A stretch of DNA of 64,000 bases from the NCBI GenBank assembly GCA_023920165.1, contig CP089277.1:1054001-1118000 (forward strand), given 5' to 3'. The notes below the pieces were generated by a model. The model was not told the origin of the DNA. It did not search any database and saw nothing but the letters and a program-made list of their open reading frames with translations. The DNA comes from Curvularia clavata (taxonomy: Eukaryota). Position 1 is the first letter of the stretch. Each line of letters starts with the position of its first letter. Below are positions 9,533-39,241 of this stretch, piece by piece. A program made the position numbers and the translations under genes.

Positions 9533-12500
9533 CGTGCTTTGTGATGAGAGAATGGTGCGGGGAGTGTCAATTGCGCTTGACCGAGAGATGTTGAAAGGTG
9601 GGTTACCGAGGACGATGGAAAACGTCACTGGTCCAAGCTCTTGGATGACTAACACAAATGATCCCTGCTGATCCGCTCAGAGAGTCTATTACTCTTAGAC
9701 ATCGCCCAATGGCGTTTCGATCTTTTTATACAGATTTGGACATAACATTGCCGATGATTTTATCAAAAACCCTGTTCATGTTCGACACATCATGCTGAGA
9801 GGATACGGGTCATGACGTTGAAACAAAGATAGCGGAACCTAGACGCTACTAGTTGTACCATCGCAATGTAGCTTGGTATTTCTTCTATCGACTGCCCACA
9901 GTACCAGCATCACTTTTTTTTTTGAAAGAGAACTGCTGCGAAGCATTCCTCAAGGTTTCTAGGCTTTGTCAATCATAGTCTGCATTAAGAATGTTTTCGC
10001 ACAAGCATACTGAAGCAGTATTTTTCTATGTTTGTATTGTTGTTCGGTGTACTAAAACAGTCGAATAAAAACTCCTACAACAGTGCAGCCATGCACCAAC
10101 GTTCACAAATCGCATTGCATAGCTCTTGGGCAGGATGGATAGACATTAGTATACAGATAGTGAGCAATCGGATTATTTCCATAATTCTCCACATAAGTTT
10201 ATACTGTTGTGATGATTGTCACAGTGAGTCGGGTTTTTTTAGTGGGCATATTCTTATCTGGCTTCTAAGCAGGTACCTGCACTGAGGAATTGGGCATAAA
10301 ATATGTTTCGCTGATACCTGGTAACAACACACATACGGGAACAATAACCTATAAAGCCATAAGAATGTGTCTAGAACATTGCAATGTTGCCTAAAACCCA
10401 ATCATGTCGGCCCTGATCATCCCTTGCTATTCCATGAACATCTCGACCGTTCAGACAAACTTTAGTGGGGTGAACCGGCTCGAATGCCAAAGTTCTCACC
10501 CTGAGCACCTCAAGACTGGTAAGGATTACTGTGGATATATAGAGAAAATATGCAAAAGTACGCCTTTGGGGTCTAGGACCCAGAGTGAAGTCAAATGTTG
10601 TGAATATCTTCATGCATGGGCCAACCCATGTCATCTCGTTGGCGTTCCAGACCCAGCTGAGCCCAGCTGTCGTCGCTGCTAGTGCAGCCACATGTTCGCC
10701 ATAGGCTACATGCGGGCGTCAAAGACCTTGCAAGGATTGACGTGACAGCTTGCACATCCCTGATTTGCTTCTGTACCGAGGAGTGGCTGTTTTTTCGGAT
10801 ACGCGCAGCGGCCATGGTGTCACTGCCGAACACCTGTCAAACCCTCTTCCGGTGCAGCATGTGTGCATCCCCGATGCGAGACCAAAATCTAGACCTGGCG
10901 ATTGTTGAAACACTGCCAGCTTTTTCGCTTATACGAGAGTCACGTTTTCCATCCCATCTGAAACTTAGTGTTTCAATGTTTGGATGACCAAACAGGCCAG
11001 AAAGAAGTGTACATATGGCAAAAGCTTCCCAAAACTTGAGGAGTGTATCTGAAAATCAATTTATGCAGCCCTGGCGGTTCACAAGGCGCAATCTTGCCCA
11101 AGGTGACGGAGACGAGCTCGCGATCGGTCGTTCCGGGGGATTTCACCAGCCACGTAACCGACCCTCTGGGACAACTTCCCGAGCAAAAAGAAAAGCCTCC
11201 AATTGGTTGCCACGTATCCTGGACACAACCTTCTCTCCTTCGCATTGTCAACAGCTCTAAAATCTAGACCTATGTGGAACAGCATTGCGAATCATGAAAC
11301 TCCAACACCCGCCAGCTCACCACAATGTTCTGGAGGAGAAAAGAAATGAAAAACAAACCCAGGAAAGTCGTAACACTTTCGACCACACCGTTAAGCCCGC
11401 TCTAGAATTGTTTTTGCTTCTGTCAGTTACCATCTCGATGGCATGAGCGTGGCATGATGTTCGAGCGTTTTGTTGACAACAAAAGCATTCGGATCGTTTG
11501 ATGGCAGCTAGGGACGCTTTCCGCTCGCTTGGAACACTGCCCGGCGTACTGGTACCTTGAATGGCTTGCTGCAAAACGGTATCGTATGACCTCGTATTCG
11601 GGTCCTGCATGTCGTTATTGTGGGAGTAGCCGGGGCTTTTTGTGGCGCTTTTTCTTCAAACGATCGAAGATCGTAGTTGAAAAATATCAGAAAGATCGAT
11701 TCGGTTAATGCTTGCAGTACAAGCGATTATTGCGTGATCTTTGCATGGGCTTGTAATTGACTCGCGAGTGTAGAATGATGAAGGGGTGAATAAGATTGGT
11801 CAAGAGCGCCATGGGGGGTCAATCAAAGGAGCATCCAATGGCCCTCACAGGATTTTGAGAGACTATCAAGTAGTGCTGAGATCTTGTAATACTGTCCCTT
11901 GCATCAACGGTGGGTTAACAAAGCCCCGCGGAGGTAGTCATTGTGACTCAATTCTTTTTCAGCCATTGAGAATCGCAACACCATCACAATAACCGAGGGT
12001 AAATTAGCCGCTGGTAATAATGCGGAACTCCCCTAAAACCGCCTTTGTATTTTCCTTCTGTTGCACTGTTGTTTTGACGTCCAGGGATTCGCCAATTGGT
12101 ATCTTAATGGCTGTCAGACATGGCCACGGCAGCCAACTGTATATGATTTTGCTTGACTCGACATGGAACTAAGGTATCAGATATTTGATCTGTTGAATTT
12201 GGAACTTGTAGTAACAGTGGTCAATGTTGACTGGGCAAGAGGACACTTACACAAGGATAGATTCGATTGGTTGAATGGATTGATTTTAAGAAAATTGGTG
12301 TTGTTGATATCTTTATATGATTCGAGGAGCGTGTACATCTTGTGACGTGACTCAAACGGGATATGCAACCATTACGGCATATTATCATCACGATATGACC
12401 AAACACCAACGATCGGATACAAAGGGCAAAACGATAAACAGTTGCTCATAATATGCAAGTTGCTCTTGCTGTTGCTCGTAGTTGATGTCGCAACTAGCTT

Positions 12501-15456
12501 TACCGCTAGGTAGCCGGAATCATTTCCGTACACTAGATCCTAGTCAAGGACTAGGCTCGTGGGTCTTGCCTCTTCCTACATTGTCGCCTTATTCAACGAG
12601 CTCACACTGCACACCGTACAGACATATCTCTCTAAAAGTTGTGGCATTTGCTCGTGCATTCTCTTTAAGTGATTTTGAGACGAGCATGCAGCATATGAAA
12701 TGGCCCATCCATAGATCCCGACAACATAGTGCGATAACAGTCCGCTCAAGAAAGATGAGGCTGTATACGGGAGCTGGGTCTGCGAGTCTGAATCTTGCCA
12801 CCTGCAGTCTCTGTCTGAAGAGCACACGAAACCACAACGAAACCATAGCTTGTTCCTATACAGATAGCTGACAACATCACCGCTTACAACCTGTCTTCGA
12901 GGTAAACATGCGATCCAGAGAGGCTGGCATTCTCTGCGCTTATCGCTTTGTTCCCAATAGCTAATCGAGTTATTTACGGAACACCATTTTGAGCTCGCAT
13001 CATCTTTTAGCTGAGATGGTCCCCGTAGCTGACATGCGTAGGCAACAAACAACCGACTGTGCCCCTGATTCTGTCTCAGGTCATTATCCCATGTGTACCA
13101 GTTTGCCACCGCTGTAATAACCATAGGCTATTCACAAAACCCCTACACTGCTCAGGGTCTGCCGCTAATTGGCTGTCGTTCCTGTCACTTCCGCGTCCCG
13201 CGGGCTGACCATACCTATTGCAACAGGACACCGGTTTTTGCCCCGTGCCCCTTGACATGCCGGTGAAAATAGCGTCGGTTGCACGACGACAGGCATGCAA
13301 CCCTGAATAAGCTTGTTCAGCATCTATCTTTGGGGAACTATCAACACTAGCGTTTCCCCTCACATGTTATCCCCGGACTATGTTGTAGCGCTATGCATTT
13401 ATCGCTCTTTGCTGATTATCAATCAGCACCCTACTCCGGCATCGCAACGACCTTGTGTCCGAGAGACGATGCTCATCGTAAGCATCAAGAGTCATTTTCT
13501 GAGAACAGCAAGAATCAGCCCGCTAGTACTTCAGCTCGACTGGTACGTACTGTTAGCGTGGCTACCGACGCCCCCCGATGTTCACACGATGCTCATGAGC
13601 AAGTGGCGTTCGTCCCGATGGTATGCGCCCGATCACAGCCTTACCTTATCGTTTACAGGGGCTAATCTGTATAGTGTGTGGCAAAGTCGAGTATACCAGT
13701 GGCGTTCACTGCCGACTTGGGTGGCTTGTTGAAGTCAGACGGCAGCAGGCACCCGATGGGAAAACGAGTTCCGGCACCGCCAGGTACAGGTTAAGCGAAT
13801 CCAGCTGCCGAGAAAGCTGGCTCCTTCAAGGGGATTCTTTGCGGGTGGTGATCGATTCTGAAGCTCCAGTATCAGACCAATAATTACATCCAAATGCAAT
13901 GGTTACCAGTTCGATTGAATGAGATTAAATTCAGCTTGCGAAGACGACCAACACATGGCAGAATTCTTAGCAGGTCATAATGTAAATTCTCAAGGAACTC
14001 GTCTATTGATTGGTTCTGCCATGTGAATGCAATCGTGATCTTGATATCTTGGCAAGGCTATTTTCTTTGAAGCAATCTGGTATTTTGGCGATATGCAGGG
14101 GTTCAAAATCTCTCTCTCTACGTAAGTTCGATTGTATCATTGGTCGATATTGCTGAAAGGTTTCACATTTTGCTGAAGCCCGACTCTCGTCGAATCATAT
14201 CCACAACCGCGCGCCAAGAAGACGAAGGTTTCTTTGAGGACATGTAGCTTGGGCGGCCCGGGATGCGCGAACCGTGGTACCCGTGCGGTCGATTTGGCCA
14301 CAACATGAACTTTGTGCCTTAGCTGATCAGGCCAACATCACACGTGAGTTGGCCGAGAGGACCCACAAAAAGCGGATCACTCGATCAAGCGACATGTTAG
14401 TGCAAAGATCTGGTGGCTCTGCTCATTAAACCACCTGTGGTTCATGTATGTTTGACCCACATAGGATGACTAACTAGTTGGCCAGTATACAGTGGCCAAG
14501 ATTTTTGGTTCCGATCACTACCTGCTACACGCGACGAAGAGAATGAAAGCACAGTATAGGCACCTAGCAGACTCATTAGAACTATACTGCAAGTGCTCGG
14601 TGTGATCCAAAAGTTTCCGAATTTGAGATGCCACAGGATCACAAGCACCCAGCGCAAAAGCAACTCATAATTACCTCATGTATCGATACTACACAACGTC
14701 CATCTTCAAGCCTACAATAATCTATGAGTTCAAACCGTTTTGCTCCAGCAGTGTAAATCACTGTCAGCCCTAGATGGCCTGGGGTAACTGCCACAGCAAG
14801 CCCACGCTGTCACCACCCCACACTTGTCAGCTTGTTCTCAGTAAAGATCAGCAGTCGGAGAGGCCGAAAGATACCCCACAGTTGGGAAAGTCGGACCTCG
14901 AAACAAAGCTTGTCTAGCAGCCAGGCGGGTAGGGGTAAGCGACACCCGCATGGCCTATGCACGTGGGTATCACCAGCATGGGGGTCGACCGGCCAAGCTT
15001 GCTGAGTACGTCAGCTGTAAAATATCTAGACCCGCGGTCCACGGGCCCCGTCCTAGCCACTGAAGCTACACATTTAATTGGTGACAGGGCCGTTGAACCG
15101 CAAAGCTAGCCCATTTGGCCAGCCTCTCAACTTTGGTACACTGCCAAAACCTGAGGACACTAAGCGTGTCATCCCATTCTCTTCAGCCTGTTTGCAAACA
15201 CGCTTGGTTGATATGCTTATCCGCTCTTACCGCTACAATGTCTTTGACCCCCATTTCCCATCAACGGTTAGAGAGAGTGTGGTTGAAGGGAAGGCTACTA
15301 GGCGAAGTCTTTTTTGGGTTTAGCGCACGCGTGCTTGCATCCTCCAATACTCTGTCGCTATATGGCGAACGTGCATCGACATCATCGATCGACACCGGGA
15401 ATGTGCTCGGTTAAGCATCCCGTGAGGGAGATCGACACGGCCGGATTAAGCGATGA

Positions 15457-15485
15457 GGGGGTTTGGGGGGTTTGGGGATTTGGGG
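15457..15485 (+). other. Putative G-quadruplex (GGGGG TTT GGGGGG TTT GGGG ATTT GGGG)
   Basis: Four tracts of at least 4 G separated by 3-4 nt loops. Confidence 0.6.
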
Positions 15486-16549
15486 ATGCGACATCATTGT
15501 GCAATCACCACAGCATGACACGCAGGGACTTGTCGGTGTGAGCGAAACAACAACCTCGCAGCAAATGATGACGAGCTGAGAAGATGTGATGCATTAGCTT
15601 GACGAGTCGTATGATACTTTCCACGAAGCGCTTGGCGCTGTGGCTCAGGGGTCTATGGTGCGGACGTTTGGGGCGCAGGGAGTAGGTGTGGTGAACACGT
15701 TGTGCAAAGGAATATTCACTGCAGCATGTTCACTGCAGGGTACCTCAAGCGGCTGTCTTGCCATGTGTCTGCTAAACGGCTCATGACCTGATTCTCAGAT
15801 GACCAAGTGAGATGCATGTCAGCCCCTGGAACCTCCTGGTGATGATTCTCTTACGGTTCCCTAATTGGCATCCGTAAGGCACCACACCTACACACAATCA
15901 AGGAAAGACTGCTGCGTTGAGCGTGAGACGACTATCTTCGTATTGCAACCGTTCAACAAACCTACCTATCCGCCTACCCCCCCAAAGATTATCGCCACTA
16001 TCATACGGCTGTTCGCCCCACTGGCCCCCCGAAATACCGAATCCAGACTTGGTTCTTCAGTATCCCAATTTAGCCTCGCTTGGGCACAGTCAAACGCCTA
16101 TCTTTTTTGGCGAGAGGGGTGCGGAAGCTGCCTGCCAGCCGCCGCGCGCGCGAGCGCCCCCAACAGCCTACCAGGCTGTGGGTAAGACAGAGAGAGCAAA
16201 CAAAGCGGTTGCTTTTTCTTTGTCGCCAGAATCGGGACCGCGCTAGGTACAAGAAGAGTGGGGACATTGCATGCTTAGTCCACCCTTTTGTGCTGGCTAG
16301 TGGCTGTCCAAAAGAAAAGAGAGCCATGCAAAAGAGGCTTAGGTGTCGATCATGCGCTAGCAAAGCATGTGGTGGTGGGATGACTGTGGGTCTAGGATAT
16401 CCTAGTGTACCTTGCAGTTGGAGTGTGTCGCTTGTTTTTTCTTGTGCTTGGGTGTGGTTAATTCCTTTTACGGGTGTTCGTTTGGGTGAGGAGGCTTACC
16501 CTGAGAGTTACGTGCATGCTTGTGTACCTGTCGCAAAAGACTGTTTTTC

Positions 16550-16634
16550 AGGGGTGTGCTTGCGCGCACGCGAGGGGCCCGAGGGGCCCGATGGGTGTAG
16601 TGGCGGGTTTAGTAGGTTGCGAGTTTTTTATATA
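16550..16634 (+). promoter_or_regulatory. Candidate promoter: three AGGGG (STRE-like) elements followed by a TATATA box
   Basis: AGGGG at 16550, 16573 and 16582 (the last two in a tandem CGAGGGGCC repeat); TATATA at 16629-16634; followed by a C/A-rich leader. Confidence 0.5.
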
Positions 16635-16865
16635 GGGACGTGGATTTCCCACGATGGATGGATATTCAGAAGCATCAACATCGAACATCATCTCCTCAAC
16701 TCTACAACTCTCCAACGCTACACGGGTCTCACTGAGAGTCACGCTCTCTTCTCACCAACCAAACACACTCCAACACACACAACTATCAACAACTACACCG
16801 AGTCCCCAAGACTCTTACTACTACAACCAACAACCATTTCCGCCCAACACCCACACTACCGCAAA

Positions 16866-16949
16866 ATGGCTCCTCGTCCATGGACTGTTCTTCCTCCCTG
16901 CCCTGGCCCACCACCAACCAGGCCTCTTCCTCCAATCCCCTCTTCATAA
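16866..16949 (+). CDS. Candidate 27-aa proline-rich micropeptide MAPRPWTVLPPCPGPPPTRPLPPIPSS
   Basis: ATG in strong context (gcaaaATGG) after a TATA box and C/A-rich leader; contains RPLPPIP. Confidence 0.55.
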   Translation: MAPRPWTVLPPCPGPPPTRPLPPIPSS

Positions 16950-17110
16950 GAATCTCATGAAGAGTAATCGGCGGCAAACACTCTGTCCTCACTCATACTA
17001 AAGGACAAAATACTACATCATCACGCCACATTCTACCAACACAAACTCTTATACGCAACACGCGCCAATGCACTGAAGTGTGCAATTGTGCAACTACGAA
17101 ACGACATCGC

Positions 17111-17130
17111 CAACCAACCAACCAACCAAC
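17111..17130 (+). repeat. (CAAC)5 microsatellite
   Basis: caaccaaccaaccaaccaac. Confidence 0.8.
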
Positions 17131-17615
17131 ATCGCCTCCGACCTCCAACCATTACTACATTTTCTTGAACTTGATTTCCATGGCTCCATTATACCAGTAG
17201 CTGCCATGCTACACCTGCTCGCGACTGCTACTTTTCACCTTCACTTCTACCTCCCTACGAAACTTGGATTCGACCGGGACTTCTTCTACTTTTTCTTCTT
17301 AGGTATTCTACGGATGCCTGGCCTATCAAAGGCCCTTTTACTTGAGGGGTGGTTTGGGAAATTGCGAAGGATGAAGGATGGGAGGGAAAGGGGGATGGAG
17401 GGAAGGGAGAGGGAACTATGATAATGACTTGAAATGAAATATTTATTCTGCAAACCTCTTGTGTGCTTTTTTTTTCTTCTTCTGGGGGTGAGTGAGATAA
17501 GGTCGAGGCGAAGTAGGAATAACCGTTGTTCTTCAAGTGGCAAGAGCTTATAGGTCTTTGCTCTACCATCTACATATATACTTTTAGTCACAACTAACAT
17601 ACCCGACATCCCGAC

Positions 17616-18614
17616 CTACTTGCCCCCCGGAAATACCAACCCATTCGCATGCCTCACCTTCTCCATCACCGCCAGCGTATCTCTCGAATGCCTCTCCAAC
17701 CTCTCCAACGCCACCATATCCCTCTCCTCAAAACACCTCGCAAACTCCCTCGCCTCCTCTGTCAAATTCAGCTTCTCGGGCACCTTGATCCCTTGCACAT
17801 CCTCCCTCGTCTTCTTCTTCGGATCCCACAAGACCACCTTGTCGATATCCGTAATCGTCGGCACAATCAAGGTGCCCTTTTCGCCATAAATCTCACTCGG
17901 CGCGTCGGAGTTATAGATCTTGGAGTGGCACAGATGGACCGTGAAGTTTGGATAGGTGAGAATCAAGCGACCGGCTCCATCGGCCCCCGTAGCGATTTTC
18001 ACAGGCCAGTACTGGGCATCTGTCGGTGCGCCGAAGAGATCGACGGCCGCGGCGACACAGTAGACGCCGAGGTCGACGAGGGCGCCGCCGCCCATTTCCA
18101 GGTTGAAGATGTTGGGGACTTCGCCTTGGAGCACTTTTTCGTAGCGGCTGCTGTACTGTGCAAAGTTGATTGAGGCGCCGTAGATAGGGCCCAGGTCGGC
18201 GATCTTTTGCTTGAGGAGCTTGAAGTTGGCTTCTTGAATGTGGCGGAAGGCTTCGACGAGGAGAACGTTGTTTTCCTTGGCCAGGGAAAAAAGGTGGTCG
18301 AGCTCTGAGACGGTGCTGCAGCTGGGTTTTTCAAGGATGACGTTTTTCCCAGAGGTTAGGAAGAGCTTGGCTTGCTCGTAGTGCAGGATGTTGGGGCTCG
18401 CAATGTAGATGGTGTCAATGGTGTTGCTGCTGGCAAGCGCGGACAGGTCTGTGAAGCATGTGATTTGCTTGTCCGTGTACTTGGAGGCAAACTCCTTTGC
18501 GGTCTCTTCTTTCCGGGAGTAGACAGCTGTCAGAGTGTACTTGCCGGTTGCATGGGCCGCCTCGACGAACGAGTGCGTAATCCAATTGGTTCCGATAATA
18601 CCTAGGTTGATCAT
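17616..18614 (-). CDS. Gfo/Idh/MocA family NAD(P)-dependent oxidoreductase (YgjR-like), intronless
   Basis: MINLGIIGTNWI, IYIASPNILHYEQA..GKNVILEKP, QYSSRY, GGGALVDLGVY. Confidence 0.9.
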   Translation of the reverse strand: MINLGIIGTNWITHSFVEAAHATGKYTLTAVYSRKEETAKEFASKYTDKQITCFTDLSALASSNTIDTIYIASPNILHYEQAKLFLTSGKNVILEKPSCSTVSELDHLFSLAKENNVLLVEAFRHIQEANFKLLKQKIADLGPIYGASINFAQYSSRYEKVLQGEVPNIFNLEMGGGALVDLGVYCVAAAVDLFGAPTDAQYWPVKIATGADGAGRLILTYPNFTVHLCHSKIYNSDAPSEIYGEKGTLIVPTITDIDKVVLWDPKKKTREDVQGIKVPEKLNLTEEAREFARCFEERDMVALERLERHSRDTLAVMEKVRHANGLVFPGGK

Positions 18615-19277: not shown

Positions 19278-20474
19278 TTAGTCCTCCCAAATGGTCTCGA
19301 GGTCCAAGTCTCCTCGTCGTTCGGCTCCGCAGACACTCCACCTCTTCCGAGAGTCTCGCTTGCCAAAGCCCATGCTGCTGCGCCCACGACCCTCAGGGCC
19401 GTCTAGGCTAGACCTCCTCGCATCACCGCCGTCTTCACGATCGGCTGCAGCCTTGAGCCTAGCGATGCGGTCTGCCTCGATTGCTTCTTCCTCGGCATCT
19501 GGACTGTCCTCGATAGTTTCGAGAGAAGAAATCGAAGGGCTGCGGGAACGCATCGACGTGGGGGTAGAGGGCACAGACGAAGATGCAAGCGAAGCGGGGT
19601 AGTTTTCGTTGAACCTGGCTGGTGCAAATAGAGGAGAGGAAGCTGTCGATGTGGGAGTGGTGACTAAAGGATTGCTGGTAGGTGCTGTGCCGAAGGGGAT
19701 AGAGACGTGGTAGAGAGGTGAGACTGGGCGACGTCGTCTGGAAAGCGAGCCGGTACTGCTGTACAGATTGGAGAGGGCCGTGCCGACACGGGGGGTGAGC
19801 TCCAGCTCTGCGTCTTCGGAGATGTCGCACACGCTCGGGGCGCCGTCAAAAGAGCCCATGGATACTGGGCGAATGGCGGAGCCGTAGCGCTCGGGAGGTC
19901 CGGCCGTATGTGGACGGGACTCGAGAGCGCGTGGGCTGCGGGTTCGCTTGGGGGATCGTAGAGGGGACGTGGGCCTAGTGAGCGGCACTGGGCTGGATGG
20001 AAGCATGAGGCTGCCAGTTGGTTGCATGCTTGTCGGTAGCGAGTGGGCTCGTGCCATGGGTATGGCTGATCCGCTCCGTGAGCGAAGGTGAGGGCGAGCA
20101 TACGGCAGTGTGTTTGGCTGATAGGTGGAAAGAGAAGCAAGGGCGTCTGGCTGAGGGTCGGTTTGCGCGCGGGGGGTGGTTGGCCGACGCGAGCTCATGG
20201 TGGTGCTTGAAGAGCTTGCGGGCTGGCGAGCGAAGGCGGCGCTTTCTCCCATGGTGGATGGCGTATCTTGAGGAGGAGGAGGAGCTATTTGGTGGTCCGA
20301 AGATGAGGGTATTTCGAGTGCAGCAGGAGCTGATGTTGGCGGAGCAGGGGGAGTAGGAGCAGGAGCAGGAGGAGCAGTAGGAGCAGTAGGAGCAAAGGTA
20401 GCAGCAGAGTCGTCGTCGTGGGTCAGTTGGCTGGCAGCAGGCGGCGGCGACGAGGAGGGATTTGCGGCAGTCAT
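19278..20474 (-). CDS. Ser/Pro-rich, probably disordered fungal protein with C-terminal KRWSVCGAERRGDLDLETIWED; start uncertain (20474 or 20252)
   Basis: Long low-complexity ORF; RSRSPSISSLETIEDSPDAEEEA and an ordered-looking C-terminal motif. Confidence 0.7.
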   Translation of the reverse strand: MTAANPSSSPPPAASQLTHDDDSAATFAPTAPTAPPAPAPTPPAPPTSAPAALEIPSSSDHQIAPPPPQDTPSTMGESAAFARQPASSSSTTMSSRRPTTPRAQTDPQPDALASLSTYQPNTLPYARPHLRSRSGSAIPMARAHSLPTSMQPTGSLMLPSSPVPLTRPTSPLRSPKRTRSPRALESRPHTAGPPERYGSAIRPVSMGSFDGAPSVCDISEDAELELTPRVGTALSNLYSSTGSLSRRRRPVSPLYHVSIPFGTAPTSNPLVTTPTSTASSPLFAPARFNENYPASLASSSVPSTPTSMRSRSPSISSLETIEDSPDAEEEAIEADRIARLKAAADREDGGDARRSSLDGPEGRGRSSMGFGKRDSRKRWSVCGAERRGDLDLETIWED

Positions 20475-38551: not shown

Positions 38552-39115
38552 CTAAACCAATTGCTCCGATTCATCCAATGAGGGGAAGAGATCGTCGAAG
38601 CTTGGAAGGACATACGTGTTTTGAAAAACCAGCTGAGAACTCAGCATGTTCGCGTCGAGGGCCTTTGGGCGTTTACGAGGGTTACCAGCGCAGACTTGGC
38701 ACTGTTTGAGAAGGTAGATGACATCTGCTCGAAGAATGCCATAATACGAACAGCGTATGTCCCTCCATGTAGCATCCCACCCGGTATGACCGTTATTGTT
38801 ATGAACTAACTCCACCACGTCCGCGATTGAGTCTTCAGTGACGACCATCCGACCCTTCCCTCCAATTTTGGATGCGCATGCGAGCAGGTTTTGTGTGTGC
38901 TCGTCCCAAGTAAATGTTTTCCGAGCATAATGACGGCGGCTGAACTCCTGTTGGGAGGACGGTCGTTTCTCAGGATTGATTAGCCATTGGATAAGACTGT
39001 TCTTCTCAGCTTGGGAAACTCGATGAGTGCTTTGGTTCTCCTGCAGATATTGAAGAAATGCGGCTCTAGTATCATGAGTAAAGGTGATGGAATTCTGAAC
39101 AGAGTGCTTGCTCAT
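38552..39115 (-). CDS. Stand-alone integrase-type HHCC zinc-binding domain protein, no DDE core
   Basis: VELVHNNNGHTGWDATW..YYGI..LLKQCQVC matches the integrase H2C2 spacing; ORF stops ~45 aa later. Confidence 0.7.
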   Translation of the reverse strand: MSKHSVQNSITFTHDTRAAFLQYLQENQSTHRVSQAEKNSLIQWLINPEKRPSSQQEFSRRHYARKTFTWDEHTQNLLACASKIGGKGRMVVTEDSIADVVELVHNNNGHTGWDATWRDIRCSYYGILRADVIYLLKQCQVCAGNPRKRPKALDANMLSSQLVFQNTYVLPSFDDLFPSLDESEQLV

Positions 39116-39169
39116 CTTGCTTTCTTTAACTCCGGGGTAGGATGTTGCGCTTACGCGCGAATTTAGCGA

Positions 39170-39241
39170 CGGCGTACGCGCCCAGTCGAGACCCACTCTT
39201 GACTGGGCGCGTACGCCGCCAGTCAAGAACCCCCTTGACTG
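39170..39241. repeat. Two adjacent inverted repeats: 21-22 bp arms (39170-39218) and 8 bp arms (39220-39241), sharing the core CAGTCRAG-N6/7-CTTGACTG
   Basis: cggcgtacgcgcccagtcgag-acccact-cttgactgggcgcgtacgccg, then cagtcaag-aacccc-cttgactg. Confidence 0.9.

What the first reader, a model, noticed from the sequence alone, without database searches (positions are those of the whole stretch)
16550..17460. Candidate 27-aa micropeptide gene encoding a class I SH3-ligand motif, with its own stress-type promoter
Seen: three AGGGG elements, TATATA, a C/A-rich leader, a strong-context ATG (gcaaaATGG) and the ORF MAPRPWTVLPPCPGPPPTRPLPPIPSS, with no larger plus-strand gene downstream. Established: RPLPPxP is the canonical class I SH3-binding motif (RPLPPLP for Src-family SH3) and AGGGG/CCCCT is the Msn2/4-type STRE. 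Inference: a stress-induced, nearly motif-only peptide that could compete for SH3 domains of polarity, endocytosis or HOG-pathway proteins; the single Cys might be modified. I recall similar CPGPPPxRPLPP stretches in tiny fungal hypothetical proteins but cannot verify that. Gene finders would miss an ORF this short.
Basis: partly seen in the sequence, partly recalled or inferred. Interest (0 to 1): 0.75.

Follow-up and report, generated by a model that had tools for sequence, protein, structure and literature searches.

The report
Conserved proline-rich fungal micropeptide gene
The 27-codon reading frame is a real small gene from a strongly conserved but unannotated family of fungal micropeptides that consist of little more than a proline-rich docking motif, whose binding partner is still unknown.

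Summary
The ORF runs from ATG 16866 to TAA 16949 and encodes MAPRPWTVLPPCPGPPPTRPLPPIPSS. Three AGGGG elements, a TATATA box and a C/A-rich, ATG-free leader lie upstream, and no larger plus-strand gene follows.

It is not a chance ORF. A DNA pattern that demanded only [LF]PPCPGPPP found 50 metagenome loci with the same tiny gene. A profile search found 68 more proteins, mostly over-extended "hypothetical proteins", three of them from named Sordariomycetes. Downstream of the demanded part, R-P-L-P-[P/A/S]-[L/V/I]-P is kept while codons change freely: pN/pS is 0.19-0.29 in frame and above 1 in the other frames. DNA similarity between loci starts at the ATG and ends at the stop. Leaders avoid ATG (8 seen, 36 expected).

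The window copy belongs to a divergent subtype (MAPRPWTV…, no C-terminal Lys) with an orthologue in another assembly. A second, different copy seems to sit in the same organism. Contigs from three studies cover only 16675-17346, a weak hint of a separate, unspliced transcript of about 0.6 kb.

The conservation pattern fits a class I/II SH3 ligand position by position. Binding, translation and stress induction are untested. I found no paper and no Pfam, PDB or Rfam entry for it.

The parts
16550..16586 (+). Cluster of three AGGGG (STRE-type) elements, about 90-125 nt upstream of where the transcript-like contigs begin
   Evidence: sequence; the only cluster of 3 or more within 40 nt in the window; shuffles give a mean of 0.14. 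Function not tested.
16629..16634 (+). TATATA box, 41-56 nt upstream of the contig starts at 16675, 16680 and 16685
   Evidence: sequence. table 8 (contig starts). The promoter role is inferred.
16675..17346 (+). Extent of the separate, unspliced contigs; probable transcript of about 0.56-0.67 kb
   Evidence: table 8: X15 covers 16675-17235 (whole 561-nt contig), X10 covers 16685-17346 (whole 662-nt contig), and X9 covers 16680-16923 plus 16909-17137. No joints. Contigs of the neighbouring gene start only at 17487, 17525 and 17550. The DNA-like run X1 spans everything in one contig. The RNA nature of these runs is the tool's guess, so this is a weak hint.
16675..16865 (+). C/A-rich 5' leader free of ATG
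   Evidence: A 65, C 78, G 14, T 34 and no ATG. In the family, 35 of 39 leaders have no ATG in -150..-1 (8 seen against 36.2 +/- 5.6 expected).
16866..16949 (+). Micropeptide ORF, 27 codons plus TAA: MAPRPWTVLPPCPGPPPTRPLPPIPSS
   Evidence: Start context has A at -3 and G at +4. An orthologue with 24 of 27 identical residues sits at the end of P0002.
16890..16940 (+). Conserved core codons: LPPCPGPPP-T-RPLPPIP
   Evidence: The core is invariant or nearly so across 65 distinct peptides, with saturated synonymous change; a second contig in all four runs matches 16890-16931 only.
16950..17346 (+). 3' trailer without a conserved ORF
   Evidence: only a 71-aa frame at 17206-17421 that partly overlaps; 10 of the 11 differences in the X10 contig lie here; family trailers are not alignable except between close relatives.

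Best explanation
The ORF at 16866-16949 is a stand-alone protein-coding micropeptide gene. It belongs to a conserved and essentially unannotated family of 21-32-residue peptides from filamentous ascomycetes, built as M, then 2-13 variable residues, then [LF]PPCPGPPP-x-RPLP-[PAS]-[LVI]-P, then 1-3 residues and a stop. It has its own TATA-type promoter. Its RNA is short and unspliced, and the micropeptide AUG is the first AUG on it.

Shown: the gene model, protein-level purifying selection, the avoidance of ATG in the leaders, and the absence of a larger ORF nearby.

Inferred: the peptide is made and acts in trans as a free proline-rich docking ligand. R-P-L-P-P-[L/V/I]-P is a complete class I SH3 motif (+xΦPxΦP). 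In most members the basic residue after the last Pro also gives a class II reading (ΦPxΦPx+). The invariant [LF]PPCPGPPP would then be an extended specificity element or a second contact. A peptide like this could occupy or compete for an SH3 domain. Sho1-type SH3, whose yeast ligand is the Pbs2 motif KPLPPLP, is the nearest precedent.

The window copy is a divergent paralogue. It has a W-containing N-terminus and no C-terminal Lys, so only the class I reading applies. A second, canonical-type copy appears to exist in the same organism.

The STRE cluster suggests stress-responsive transcription, but this is the weakest step.

My odds: real selected coding gene about 0.9; ligand of a proline-recognition domain about 0.65; specifically SH3 about 0.5; stress-induced about 0.35.
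For: (1) Family. Of these, 50 carry x-[R/K/G/C]-PLP next and form tiny ORFs.

(2) Selection. I compared 45 distinct sequences. Arg uses CGG, AGG, CGT, CGC, AGA and CGA, and Leu uses six codons, while the residues stay the same. Across RPLPPxP, column identity is 0.64-1.00 at codon positions 1 and 2 (below 0.87 only at the first base of the Arg and [L/V/I] codons) and 0.41-0.62 at position 3. It drops to about 0.3-0.45 right after the stop. Pooled pN/pS is 0.19 for xRPLPPxP. It is 0.285 for the four codons that neither the pattern nor my filter constrained. The two other frames give 1.5 and 28.7.

(3) ORF boundaries. In all-against-all blastn of the 51 loci, most pairs align only from about -6..0 of the ATG to about +77..+100.

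(4) Translation signals. The base at -3 is A in 39 and G in 6 of 45. Leaders hold 8 ATG against 36.2 +/- 5.6 expected, and 35 of 39 have none. Trailers hold 98 against 69.8.

(5) Independent protein evidence. A profile search of 1.84 billion representatives gave 68 hits at E <= 1e-3. In 46 the peptide sits at the end of an over-extended prediction of 67-432 aa, and 3 are 35-37 aa. Named examples come from Seiridium cupressi, Sodiomyces alkalinus and Hypoxylon sp. EC38, all as 'hypothetical protein'.

(6) Window subtype. P0002 ends in MAPRPWTVLPPCPGPPPTRPLPPLPTA, and only that part aligns with the window frame. P0022 has MPSKGWTTLPP….

(7) SH3 logic. Of 65 distinct complete peptides, 64 parsed. 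The + position is R 55, K 1, G 7, C 1. The first Φ is L in all 64. The second x is P 55, A 6, S 3. The second Φ is L 37, V 17, I 8, T 2. A basic residue lies on both sides in 52, only C-terminally in 8 (the forms that lost R), only N-terminally in 4, and on neither side in 0.

(8) Stand-alone. No recurrent downstream ORF appears. None of 148 open frames of 110 aa or more within +/-1.5 kb of 25 loci passes a Pfam cutoff.

(9) Transcript hint. Contigs from three studies start at 16675-16685 and end at 17137-17346. They are separate from the contigs of the neighbouring gene, whereas the DNA-like run reads straight through.

(10) Precedent. The ScPbs2 motif VNKPLPPLPVAG binds the Sho1 SH3 domain, PDB 2VKN (passages of PMC4904012). 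A. nidulans PbsB lacks that motif (passage of PMC3153207).
Against: There is no direct evidence that the peptide exists; no Ribo-seq or mass spectrometry was available.

The most invariant block, [LF]PPCPGPPP, is not explained by a minimal SH3 motif.

Ascertainment matters. The DNA pattern fixed nine codons, and my family filter fixed x[RKGC]PLP, so only the last four codons, the N-termini, the stop position and the flanks are fully unbiased. They still show constraint.

Proline-rich frames arise easily in C-rich DNA. That explains this one ORF taken alone, but not its conservation.

STRE enrichment is modest (36 against 25.6 in -700..-250) and absent over -800..0 (48 against 41.6, reached by 46 of 300 shuffles).

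For the window copy itself I have no DNA of an orthologue. Its own constraint therefore rests on one protein orthologue, plus the absence of any listed variant in the ORF among the rows shown, where 56 rows were not shown.
Confidence: 0.6

Rival explanations
1. The peptide is a trans-acting ligand of a different proline-recognition module rather than SH3. Candidates are a group II WW domain (PPLP), profilin, or an EVH1- or GYF-type domain. It could also bridge two such modules, one on PPCPGPPP and one on RPLPPΦP.
For: PLPPLP contains the PPLP motif, a WW group II ligand (recalled knowledge). The invariant [LF]PPCPGPPP block goes beyond what an SH3 core motif needs and could be a second binding site.
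Against: The position-wise tolerance fits the +xΦPxΦP / ΦPxΦPx+ scheme better than PPLP. The x position takes P, A or S. The Φ position takes L, V or I. Not one of 64 peptides lacks a flanking basic residue, and the forms that lost R all keep a C-terminal K. PLPPVP and PLPAIP members lack PPLP.
Confidence: 0.15
2. The ORF acts in cis. It would be a polyproline-rich nascent peptide (PPP, PGP, PP runs) that stalls ribosomes depending on eIF5A, so that the RNA or its translation state is the functional output rather than the free peptide.
For: Pro makes up 11-13 of about 25 residues, with PPP and PGPPP runs. Arrest peptides are also conserved at the amino-acid level. Family RNAs seem to carry long trailers (contig lengths).
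Against: The window contigs hold no downstream ORF to regulate, and none recurs in 25 loci. Conservation of R, L, the Φ position and the flanking Lys, and their compensatory pattern, is not needed for a proline stall. Trailers are not conserved.
Confidence: 0.12
3. The peptide is a precursor of a processed or modified peptide. It could be RiPP-like or lipidated at the Cys, and either secreted or membrane-anchored.
For: The single Cys is present in 59 of 67 profile hits that did not require it. One hit, P0052, looks like a secreted protein with two similar motifs separated by KR.
Against: The peptides have no signal peptide and no CaaX end. No tailoring-enzyme gene lies within +/-1.5 kb in 25 loci. 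In RiPP families the core usually varies and the leader is conserved, which is the opposite of what is seen here. Relatives with R, S, P or A at the Cys position exist.
Confidence: 0.05
4. The window copy is a transcribed but functionless duplicate, or a chance ORF on a non-coding RNA, and only the canonical paralogue is functional.
For: The copy differs from the canonical type at both ends. I had no orthologous DNA for a dN/dS test of this subtype.
Against: An orthologue in another assembly keeps 24 of 27 residues and the same length while the leader has diverged beyond alignment. A more distant relative, P0022, keeps the W-T-x-LPP N-terminus. The ATG is the first one in the contig-supported RNA and has A at -3 and G at +4. 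In the X10 contig, 0 of 11 differences fall in the ORF and 10 fall in the trailer.
Confidence: 0.06

Closest known systems
Pbs2 proline-rich motif (VNKPLPPLPVAG) bound by the Sho1 SH3 domain in S. cerevisiae (PDB 2VKN; passages of PMC4904012)
   Same: The motif is almost identical, basic-P-L-P-P-L-P. It is fungal, and it is a class I SH3 ligand used in MAPK signalling.
   Different: In yeast the motif sits inside a 668-aa MAPK kinase. Here it is nearly the whole gene product. The invariant N-terminal PPCPGPPP block has no counterpart in Pbs2. Binding to Sho1 was not tested. According to a review passage (PMC3153207), A. nidulans PbsB lacks the motif, which leaves the Sho1 SH3 domain without its yeast ligand there.
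Canonical class I / class II SH3 ligand consensus (+xΦPxΦP / ΦPxΦPx+), e.g. the synthetic Src-SH3 ligand RPLPPLP (recalled knowledge, not from a call)
   Same: The family consensus RPLPP[L/V/I]P matches every position. Most members also read as class II through the C-terminal K or R.
   Different: Those are motifs within proteins or library peptides, not naturally encoded stand-alone genes.
Microproteins that carry short linear motifs and are translated from small ORFs on 'non-coding' RNAs (human catalogue, PMC10032668; seen only as a search listing and abstract)
   Same: A tiny ORF is the first AUG of a short RNA. The product is essentially one linear motif, and annotation misses it.
   Different: Most of those are evolutionarily young. 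This family is conserved across many fungal genomes under strong purifying selection.
Earlier notes of this scan on other genomes (e1-7648094, e1-7568740)
   Same: They describe the same kind of gene: a 23-aa and a 27-aa proline-rich RPLPPLP-type micropeptide on unspliced fungal RNAs. The 23-aa form matches the type I found in loci L018, L037, L098, L107 and L115.
   Different: Those are AI notes on other genomes. The window copy is a distinct subtype (MAPRPWTV…PPIPSS, no terminal Lys) and appears to coexist with a canonical copy.

Membership tests
Fungal [LF]PPCPGPPP-x-RPLPPΦP micropeptide family (defined here) | Invariant core [LF]PPCPGPPP followed by x-R-P-L-P-[PAS]-[LVI]-P | tested here: met
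   The window has LPPCPGPPP-T-RPLPPIP. Alignment A1 has PPCPGPPP, P, L, P, P invariant and R at 90% or more.
Fungal [LF]PPCPGPPP-x-RPLPPΦP micropeptide family (defined here) | Tiny ORF: ATG 3-14 codons before the core and a stop 1-3 codons after the last Pro | tested here: met
   In the window the ATG lies 8 codons before the core and the stop 2 codons after the last Pro. In the family, the stop comes 1-3 codons after the last Pro in 41 of 45, and ATG offsets are 3-14.
Fungal [LF]PPCPGPPP-x-RPLPPΦP micropeptide family (defined here) | Purifying selection in this frame only | tested here: met
   At family level, pN/pS is 0.19-0.285 in frame against 1.5 and 28.7 in the other frames. For the window subtype, only a protein orthologue is available.
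Fungal [LF]PPCPGPPP-x-RPLPPΦP micropeptide family (defined here) | ATG-free C/A-rich leader and a purine at -3 | tested here: met
   The window has no ATG in 16659-16865 and A at -3. In the family, 35 of 39 leaders have no ATG, and the -3 base is A in 39 and G in 6 of 45.
Class I SH3 ligand | Sequence +xΦPxΦP | tested here: met
   R-P-L-P-P-I-P at 16920-16940. The family substitution pattern follows the consensus.
Class I SH3 ligand | Physical binding to an SH3 domain | not testable with these tools
The window's large ORFs hold no SH3 domain. No complex prediction was run.
Upstream ORF (uORF) / cis-regulatory leader peptide | A main ORF downstream on the same transcript | tested here: not met
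   The window contigs end at 17137-17346 with no further sizeable ORF. No recurrent downstream ORF or Pfam domain appears in 25 loci. One NCBI model, P0053, fuses a C-to-R variant to an MFS transporter; this is probably a modelling artefact and I did not examine it further.
RiPP precursor / lipopeptide pheromone precursor | Signal or leader with neighbouring tailoring enzymes, or a C-terminal CaaX | tested here: not met
   There is no CaaX; the Cys is internal. No Pfam domain lies within +/-1.5 kb in 25 loci. The window's neighbouring oxidoreductase is not a conserved neighbour.
STRE (Msn2/4-type) stress-regulated gene | Clustered AGGGG/CCCCT elements in the promoter | tested here: met
   Three lie in 37 nt at 16550-16586, a cluster unique in the window. 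Family promoters show a modest excess, 36 against 25.6 +/- 4.4.
STRE (Msn2/4-type) stress-regulated gene | Induction by stress, dependent on the elements | not testable with these tools
   No RNA run is on record and no condition data are available.
Any curated family (Pfam, Rfam, PDB) | A match above threshold | tested here: not met
   Pfam found 0 families for 4 peptides at E <= 10. PDB sequences gave 0 matches at E <= 10 with the profile. Rfam gave only a 23.9-bit match against a gathering score of 55.

The most novel reading that the evidence does not exclude
Filamentous ascomycetes encode free SH3-ligand micropeptides that act as genetically regulated decoys or adaptors for a signalling SH3 domain. 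The obvious candidate is Sho1, whose yeast partner motif (KPLPPLP in Pbs2) is reported missing from the A. nidulans Pbs2 orthologue. Genomes would carry two functionally distinct paralogues. The canonical type is bidirectional (class I plus class II). The window type is class I only, has a Trp-containing N-terminus and sits behind an STRE cluster. Stress would then change which ligand occupies the SH3 domain and so gate MAPK, polarity or endocytic signalling.
Probability: 0.12. Interest if true: 0.88.

Novelty: new variant of a known kind. Interest (0 to 1): 0.72.

Why it matters
If the peptide is made and binds an SH3 domain, it would be a naturally encoded, conserved, stand-alone SH3 ligand: a gene whose whole product is one docking motif. 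That would add a new layer of regulation to fungal signalling scaffolds in the Sho1/MAPK, polarity and endocytosis pathways, in a group that includes many plant and animal pathogens.

It also shows a systematic annotation gap. In public protein sets the family appears almost only as the last 25 or so residues of wrongly extended 'hypothetical proteins', because the C/A-rich leaders have no stop codons.

Standard proteomics would also miss it. In the window peptide both Arg residues are followed by Pro, so trypsin would not cut.

The claim is directly testable with a synthetic peptide and the roughly 25-30 SH3 domains of one fungus.

Tried and rejected
- **Whole genome:** none is held for this window. 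The paralogue and the organism's SH3 proteins could therefore not be fetched.
- **Sequencing runs:** no RNA holder is listed. The parts of the stretch without cover in X15, X9 and X10 (16200-16668 and about 17350-17480) are not evidence in themselves. Contig depths cannot rank genes: the second-copy contig had 3054 against 158 in X15, 83 against 13.5 in X10, and 481 against 681 in X1.
- **Protein search, near lengths:** the 27-aa query was below the tool's 40-aa minimum. I re-sent a 40-aa reference that includes 13 upstream in-frame codons. It gave 1 hit, P0001.
- **Protein search, longer lengths:** 1 hit, P0002.
- **Curated libraries:** Pfam gave 0 families for 4 peptides. PDB sequences gave 0 matches with the profile. 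Rfam gave only a sub-threshold lncRNA match. The ESM Atlas gave a best score of 0.76, which is a lead only and was not used.
- **Papers:** the strings CPGPPP, PPCPGPP, RPLPPLPK, RPLPPVPSK and RPLPPLPKRG are found in 0 papers. Two topic searches listed nothing that describes such a family. The library lacks most subscription journals.
- **Earlier scan notes:** searches by place and by sequence found nothing. A search by words found two notes.
- **Bacterial-type promoter/terminator scan:** not applicable to a fungus.
- **uORF hypothesis and synteny with the oxidoreductase:** rejected.
- **Metagenome loci:** 68 of the 118 lack x[RKGC]PLP after the pattern. They are mostly long GC-rich frames or repeats, and I dropped them as chance matches.
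- **Complex and structure prediction:** not run. No SH3 sequence was available, and a 27-residue polyproline peptide has no fold to predict.
Full report
**1. The observation**

- AGGGG lies at 16550, 16573 and 16582.
- TATATA lies at 16629-16634.
- A C/A-rich stretch follows: 16675-16865 has A 65, C 78, G 14, T 34.
- The ATG at 16866 sits in gcaaaATGg.
- The frame MAPRPWTVLPPCPGPPPTRPLPPIPSS ends at TAA 16947-16949.
- No ATG lies between 16659 and 16865.
- The next large gene is a convergent minus-strand GFO_IDH_MocA oxidoreductase at 17616-18614.

The window is fungal: it holds a Zn(2)-Cys(6) / Fungal_trans_2 gene among others. The STRE triplet is the only cluster of 3 or more AGGGG/CCCCT within 40 nt in the 64 kb, against a mean of 0.14 in shuffles. 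The frame is open upstream to 16326 only because the leader is poor in T and G. That upstream part has no counterpart in the orthologue.

**2. It is one member of a large hidden family**

A protein word search with a 40-aa reference found a single 35-aa JGI protein ending in …LPPCPGPPPTRPLPAVPST. The 40-aa reference was needed because the 27-aa peptide is below the tool's minimum.

I then scanned metagenome contigs with a degenerate DNA pattern for [LF]PPCPGPPP only, leaving the proposed SH3 motif free. The loci fall into two sets.
- **Family loci (50):** the pattern is followed by x-[R/K/G/C]-P-L-P and sits in a tiny ORF. Examples are MPAQRPSQLPPCPGPPPSRPLPPLPKRG, MPAHRPSQ…LPK, MPAASFPPCPGPPPTRPLPPLPK and M[GAVT]SQNLPPCPGPPPTRPLPPVPSK.
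- **Dropped loci (68):** mostly long GC-rich frames or repeats unrelated to the family. I dropped them as chance matches.

A profile built from 30 peptides (A1) was searched against 1.84 billion representatives and gave 68 hits at E <= 1e-3. They break down as follows.
- In 46 the peptide forms the last residues of an over-extended prediction of 67-432 aa.
- 3 are 35-37 aa.
- 12 have the core at the N-terminus of a longer model.
- 6 are internal.
- 1 lacks the core.

The named records are 'hypothetical proteins' of Seiridium cupressi, Sodiomyces alkalinus and Hypoxylon sp. EC38. One further record is an MFS-transporter model of Setomelanomma holmii that begins with a C-to-R variant of the peptide. 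Pfam, PDB sequences and Rfam have nothing. Four literature searches found no description.

**3. It is under protein-level selection**

- **Codon usage.** In 45 distinct sequences the conserved Arg uses six codons and the Leu six codons, and Pro uses all four.
- **Column identity.** Across RPLPPxP it is 0.64-1.00 at codon positions 1 and 2 (below 0.87 only at the first base of the Arg and [L/V/I] codons, where synonymous or conservative changes fall) and 0.41-0.62 at position 3. It falls to background (0.3-0.45) immediately before the start region and after the stop.
- **Substitution rates.** Pooled Nei-Gojobori proportions for xRPLPPxP are pS 0.68 and pN 0.13. For the four codons constrained neither by the pattern nor by my filter they are pS 0.67 and pN 0.19. 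The two other frames give ratios of 1.5 and 28.7.
- **ORF boundaries.** In all-against-all blastn, most pairs align only from the Kozak bases to just past the stop.
- **Stop and start.** The stop lies 1-3 codons after the last Pro in 41 of 45. The -3 base is A in 39 and G in 6 of 45.
- **Leaders.** They hold 8 ATG against 36.2 +/- 5.6 expected, and 35 of 39 have none. Trailers hold 98 against 69.8.

Together these results say that scanning ribosomes are meant to reach this AUG and that the peptide sequence is what is selected.

**4. It stands alone**

No downstream ORF recurs. Of 148 open frames of 110 aa or more within +/-1.5 kb of 25 family loci, none passes a Pfam cutoff. The ORF is therefore not a uORF of a recognisable gene, and it has no conserved neighbour. 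The Gfo/Idh/MocA gene beside the window copy is incidental.

**5. The window copy**

It belongs to a minority subtype. P0002, from another assembly, ends in MAPRPWTVLPPCPGPPPTRPLPPLPTA. That is 24 of 27 identical residues and the same length, while the preceding 'leader' residues do not align. P0022 has MPSKGWTTLPPCPGPPPNRPLPPLPS. Together with P0001, these are the only four of 64 parsed peptides without a basic residue after the last Pro.

Laying contigs of four runs on 16200-18200 gave three results.
- **DNA-like run.** X1 is near-identical and spans everything in one piece.
- **Separate contigs.** In X15, X9 and X10, which come from three studies, contigs cover only 16675/16680/16685 to 17235/17137/17346, without joints. 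The oxidoreductase is on other contigs that start at 17487, 17525 and 17550. It would start 41-56 nt downstream of the TATA box.
- **Second copy.** In all four runs another contig matches only 16890-16931, which is 14 codons of the core, with 6 mismatches. In three of the runs (X1, X15, X10) its flanks read …ATG GCT CCC CAG AAC before and GCT GTC CCT ACC AAG GGC AAC TGA behind. This is an in-frame second tiny ORF of the canonical MAPQN…AVPTK type; compare P0013. X9 holds another variant. I infer a second paralogue in the same organism.

In the X10 contig, none of the 11 differences lies in the ORF, 1 lies in the leader and 10 lie in the trailer. Note that 56 rows of the variant table were not shown.

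**6. How it most likely works**

The substitution pattern follows the SH3 ligand consensus position by position.

| Position | Residues seen (64 peptides) |
|---|---|
| + | R 55, K 1, G 7, C 1 |
| first x | always P |
| first Φ | L 64 |
| P | P |
| second x | P 55, A 6, S 3 |
| second Φ | L 37, V 17, I 8, T 2 |
| P | P |

52 peptides also have a K or R within two residues after the last Pro, which gives a class II reading. The eight that lost the Arg all keep that C-terminal basic residue. No peptide lacks both.

This compensation is what a pseudo-palindromic PxxP ligand predicts. A mere proline stall does not need it. I therefore favour a free, trans-acting docking peptide. The nearest precedent is the Pbs2 motif VNKPLPPLPVAG bound by the Sho1 SH3 domain (passages of PMC4904012). 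A review passage states that A. nidulans PbsB lacks this motif (PMC3153207).

The invariant [LF]PPCPGPPP block is unexplained. It may be an extended specificity element or a second site. The Cys is present in 59 of 67 profile hits and is replaced by R, S, P or A in a few, mostly longer, relatives. A Cys modification therefore cannot be universal. Stress control is suggested only by the STRE cluster and a modest family-wide excess.

**7. Novelty and verdict**

The kind of gene is known in principle: micropeptides that carry one linear motif. A conserved, stand-alone SH3-type ligand gene family in fungi is not in Pfam, PDB, Rfam or the searched literature. Two earlier notes of this scan describe related genes in other genomes. 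I reached the family independently from sequence. Binding partner, translation and regulation remain to be shown.

Noticed in passing
window 16326-16865 (+), and P0002, P0011 and similar: The C/A-rich leader has no stop codon in the micropeptide frame for 540 nt. Gene callers therefore extend the ORF upstream. In public protein sets, 46 of 68 profile hits are such 67-432-aa 'proteins' whose only real part is the last 25 or so residues.
   Followed up: yes
L006, L025, L040, L042, L087, L117, L010 (family loci): One subfamily has a conserved in-frame upstream ATG that gives a 33-36-aa form (MAA[IL]x[YF]xES[NV]M…). The extension is conserved at the amino-acid level, so these members may start 10 codons earlier.
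   Followed up: partly
P0053 (KAF2022560.1, Setomelanomma holmii): An annotated 501-aa MFS transporter begins with MSQELPPRPGPPPTRPLPPIPSK, a Cys-to-Arg variant of the micropeptide. This is probably a gene-model fusion across the stop. It hints that Dothideomycetes carry an R-variant of the family.
   Followed up: no
P0052 (108 aa, profile hit): This protein looks secreted: it has a hydrophobic N-terminal segment and two QLPP[AT]PGPPP[TS]R[SP]LPP repeats separated by KR. It is reminiscent of kexin-processed repeat precursors. Its relation to the micropeptide family is unclear.
   Followed up: no
window 9700-16300: This stretch of about 6.5 kb is unusually gene-poor. Its only stop-to-stop frame of 150 aa or more is 12576-13127 (-), which has no Pfam match. 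The micropeptide gene therefore sits at the edge of a long stretch without recognisable genes. Similarly, all 25 family loci examined lack Pfam-recognisable genes within +/-1.5 kb.
   Followed up: partly
window 16570-16589: Two of the three STRE elements lie in a direct tandem duplication of CGAGGGGCC.
   Followed up: no
window 38552-39241 (-): An open frame with an Integrase_H2C2 zinc-binding domain match (E 6e-7), probably a retrotransposon remnant.
   Followed up: no
window 19278-20474 (-): A 398-aa Ser/Pro/Ala-rich ORF with no Pfam match, just beyond the oxidoreductase. It looks like a low-complexity, probably disordered, protein.
   Followed up: no
window 17487 (X15 loose end): The contig of the neighbouring oxidoreductase gene begins at 17487 with a loose end that looks like a sequencing-adapter tail (recalled, not tested). 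This would place that gene's 3' end about 130 nt past its stop, and about 140-250 nt from the end of the micropeptide contigs, so the two transcripts would converge.
   Followed up: no
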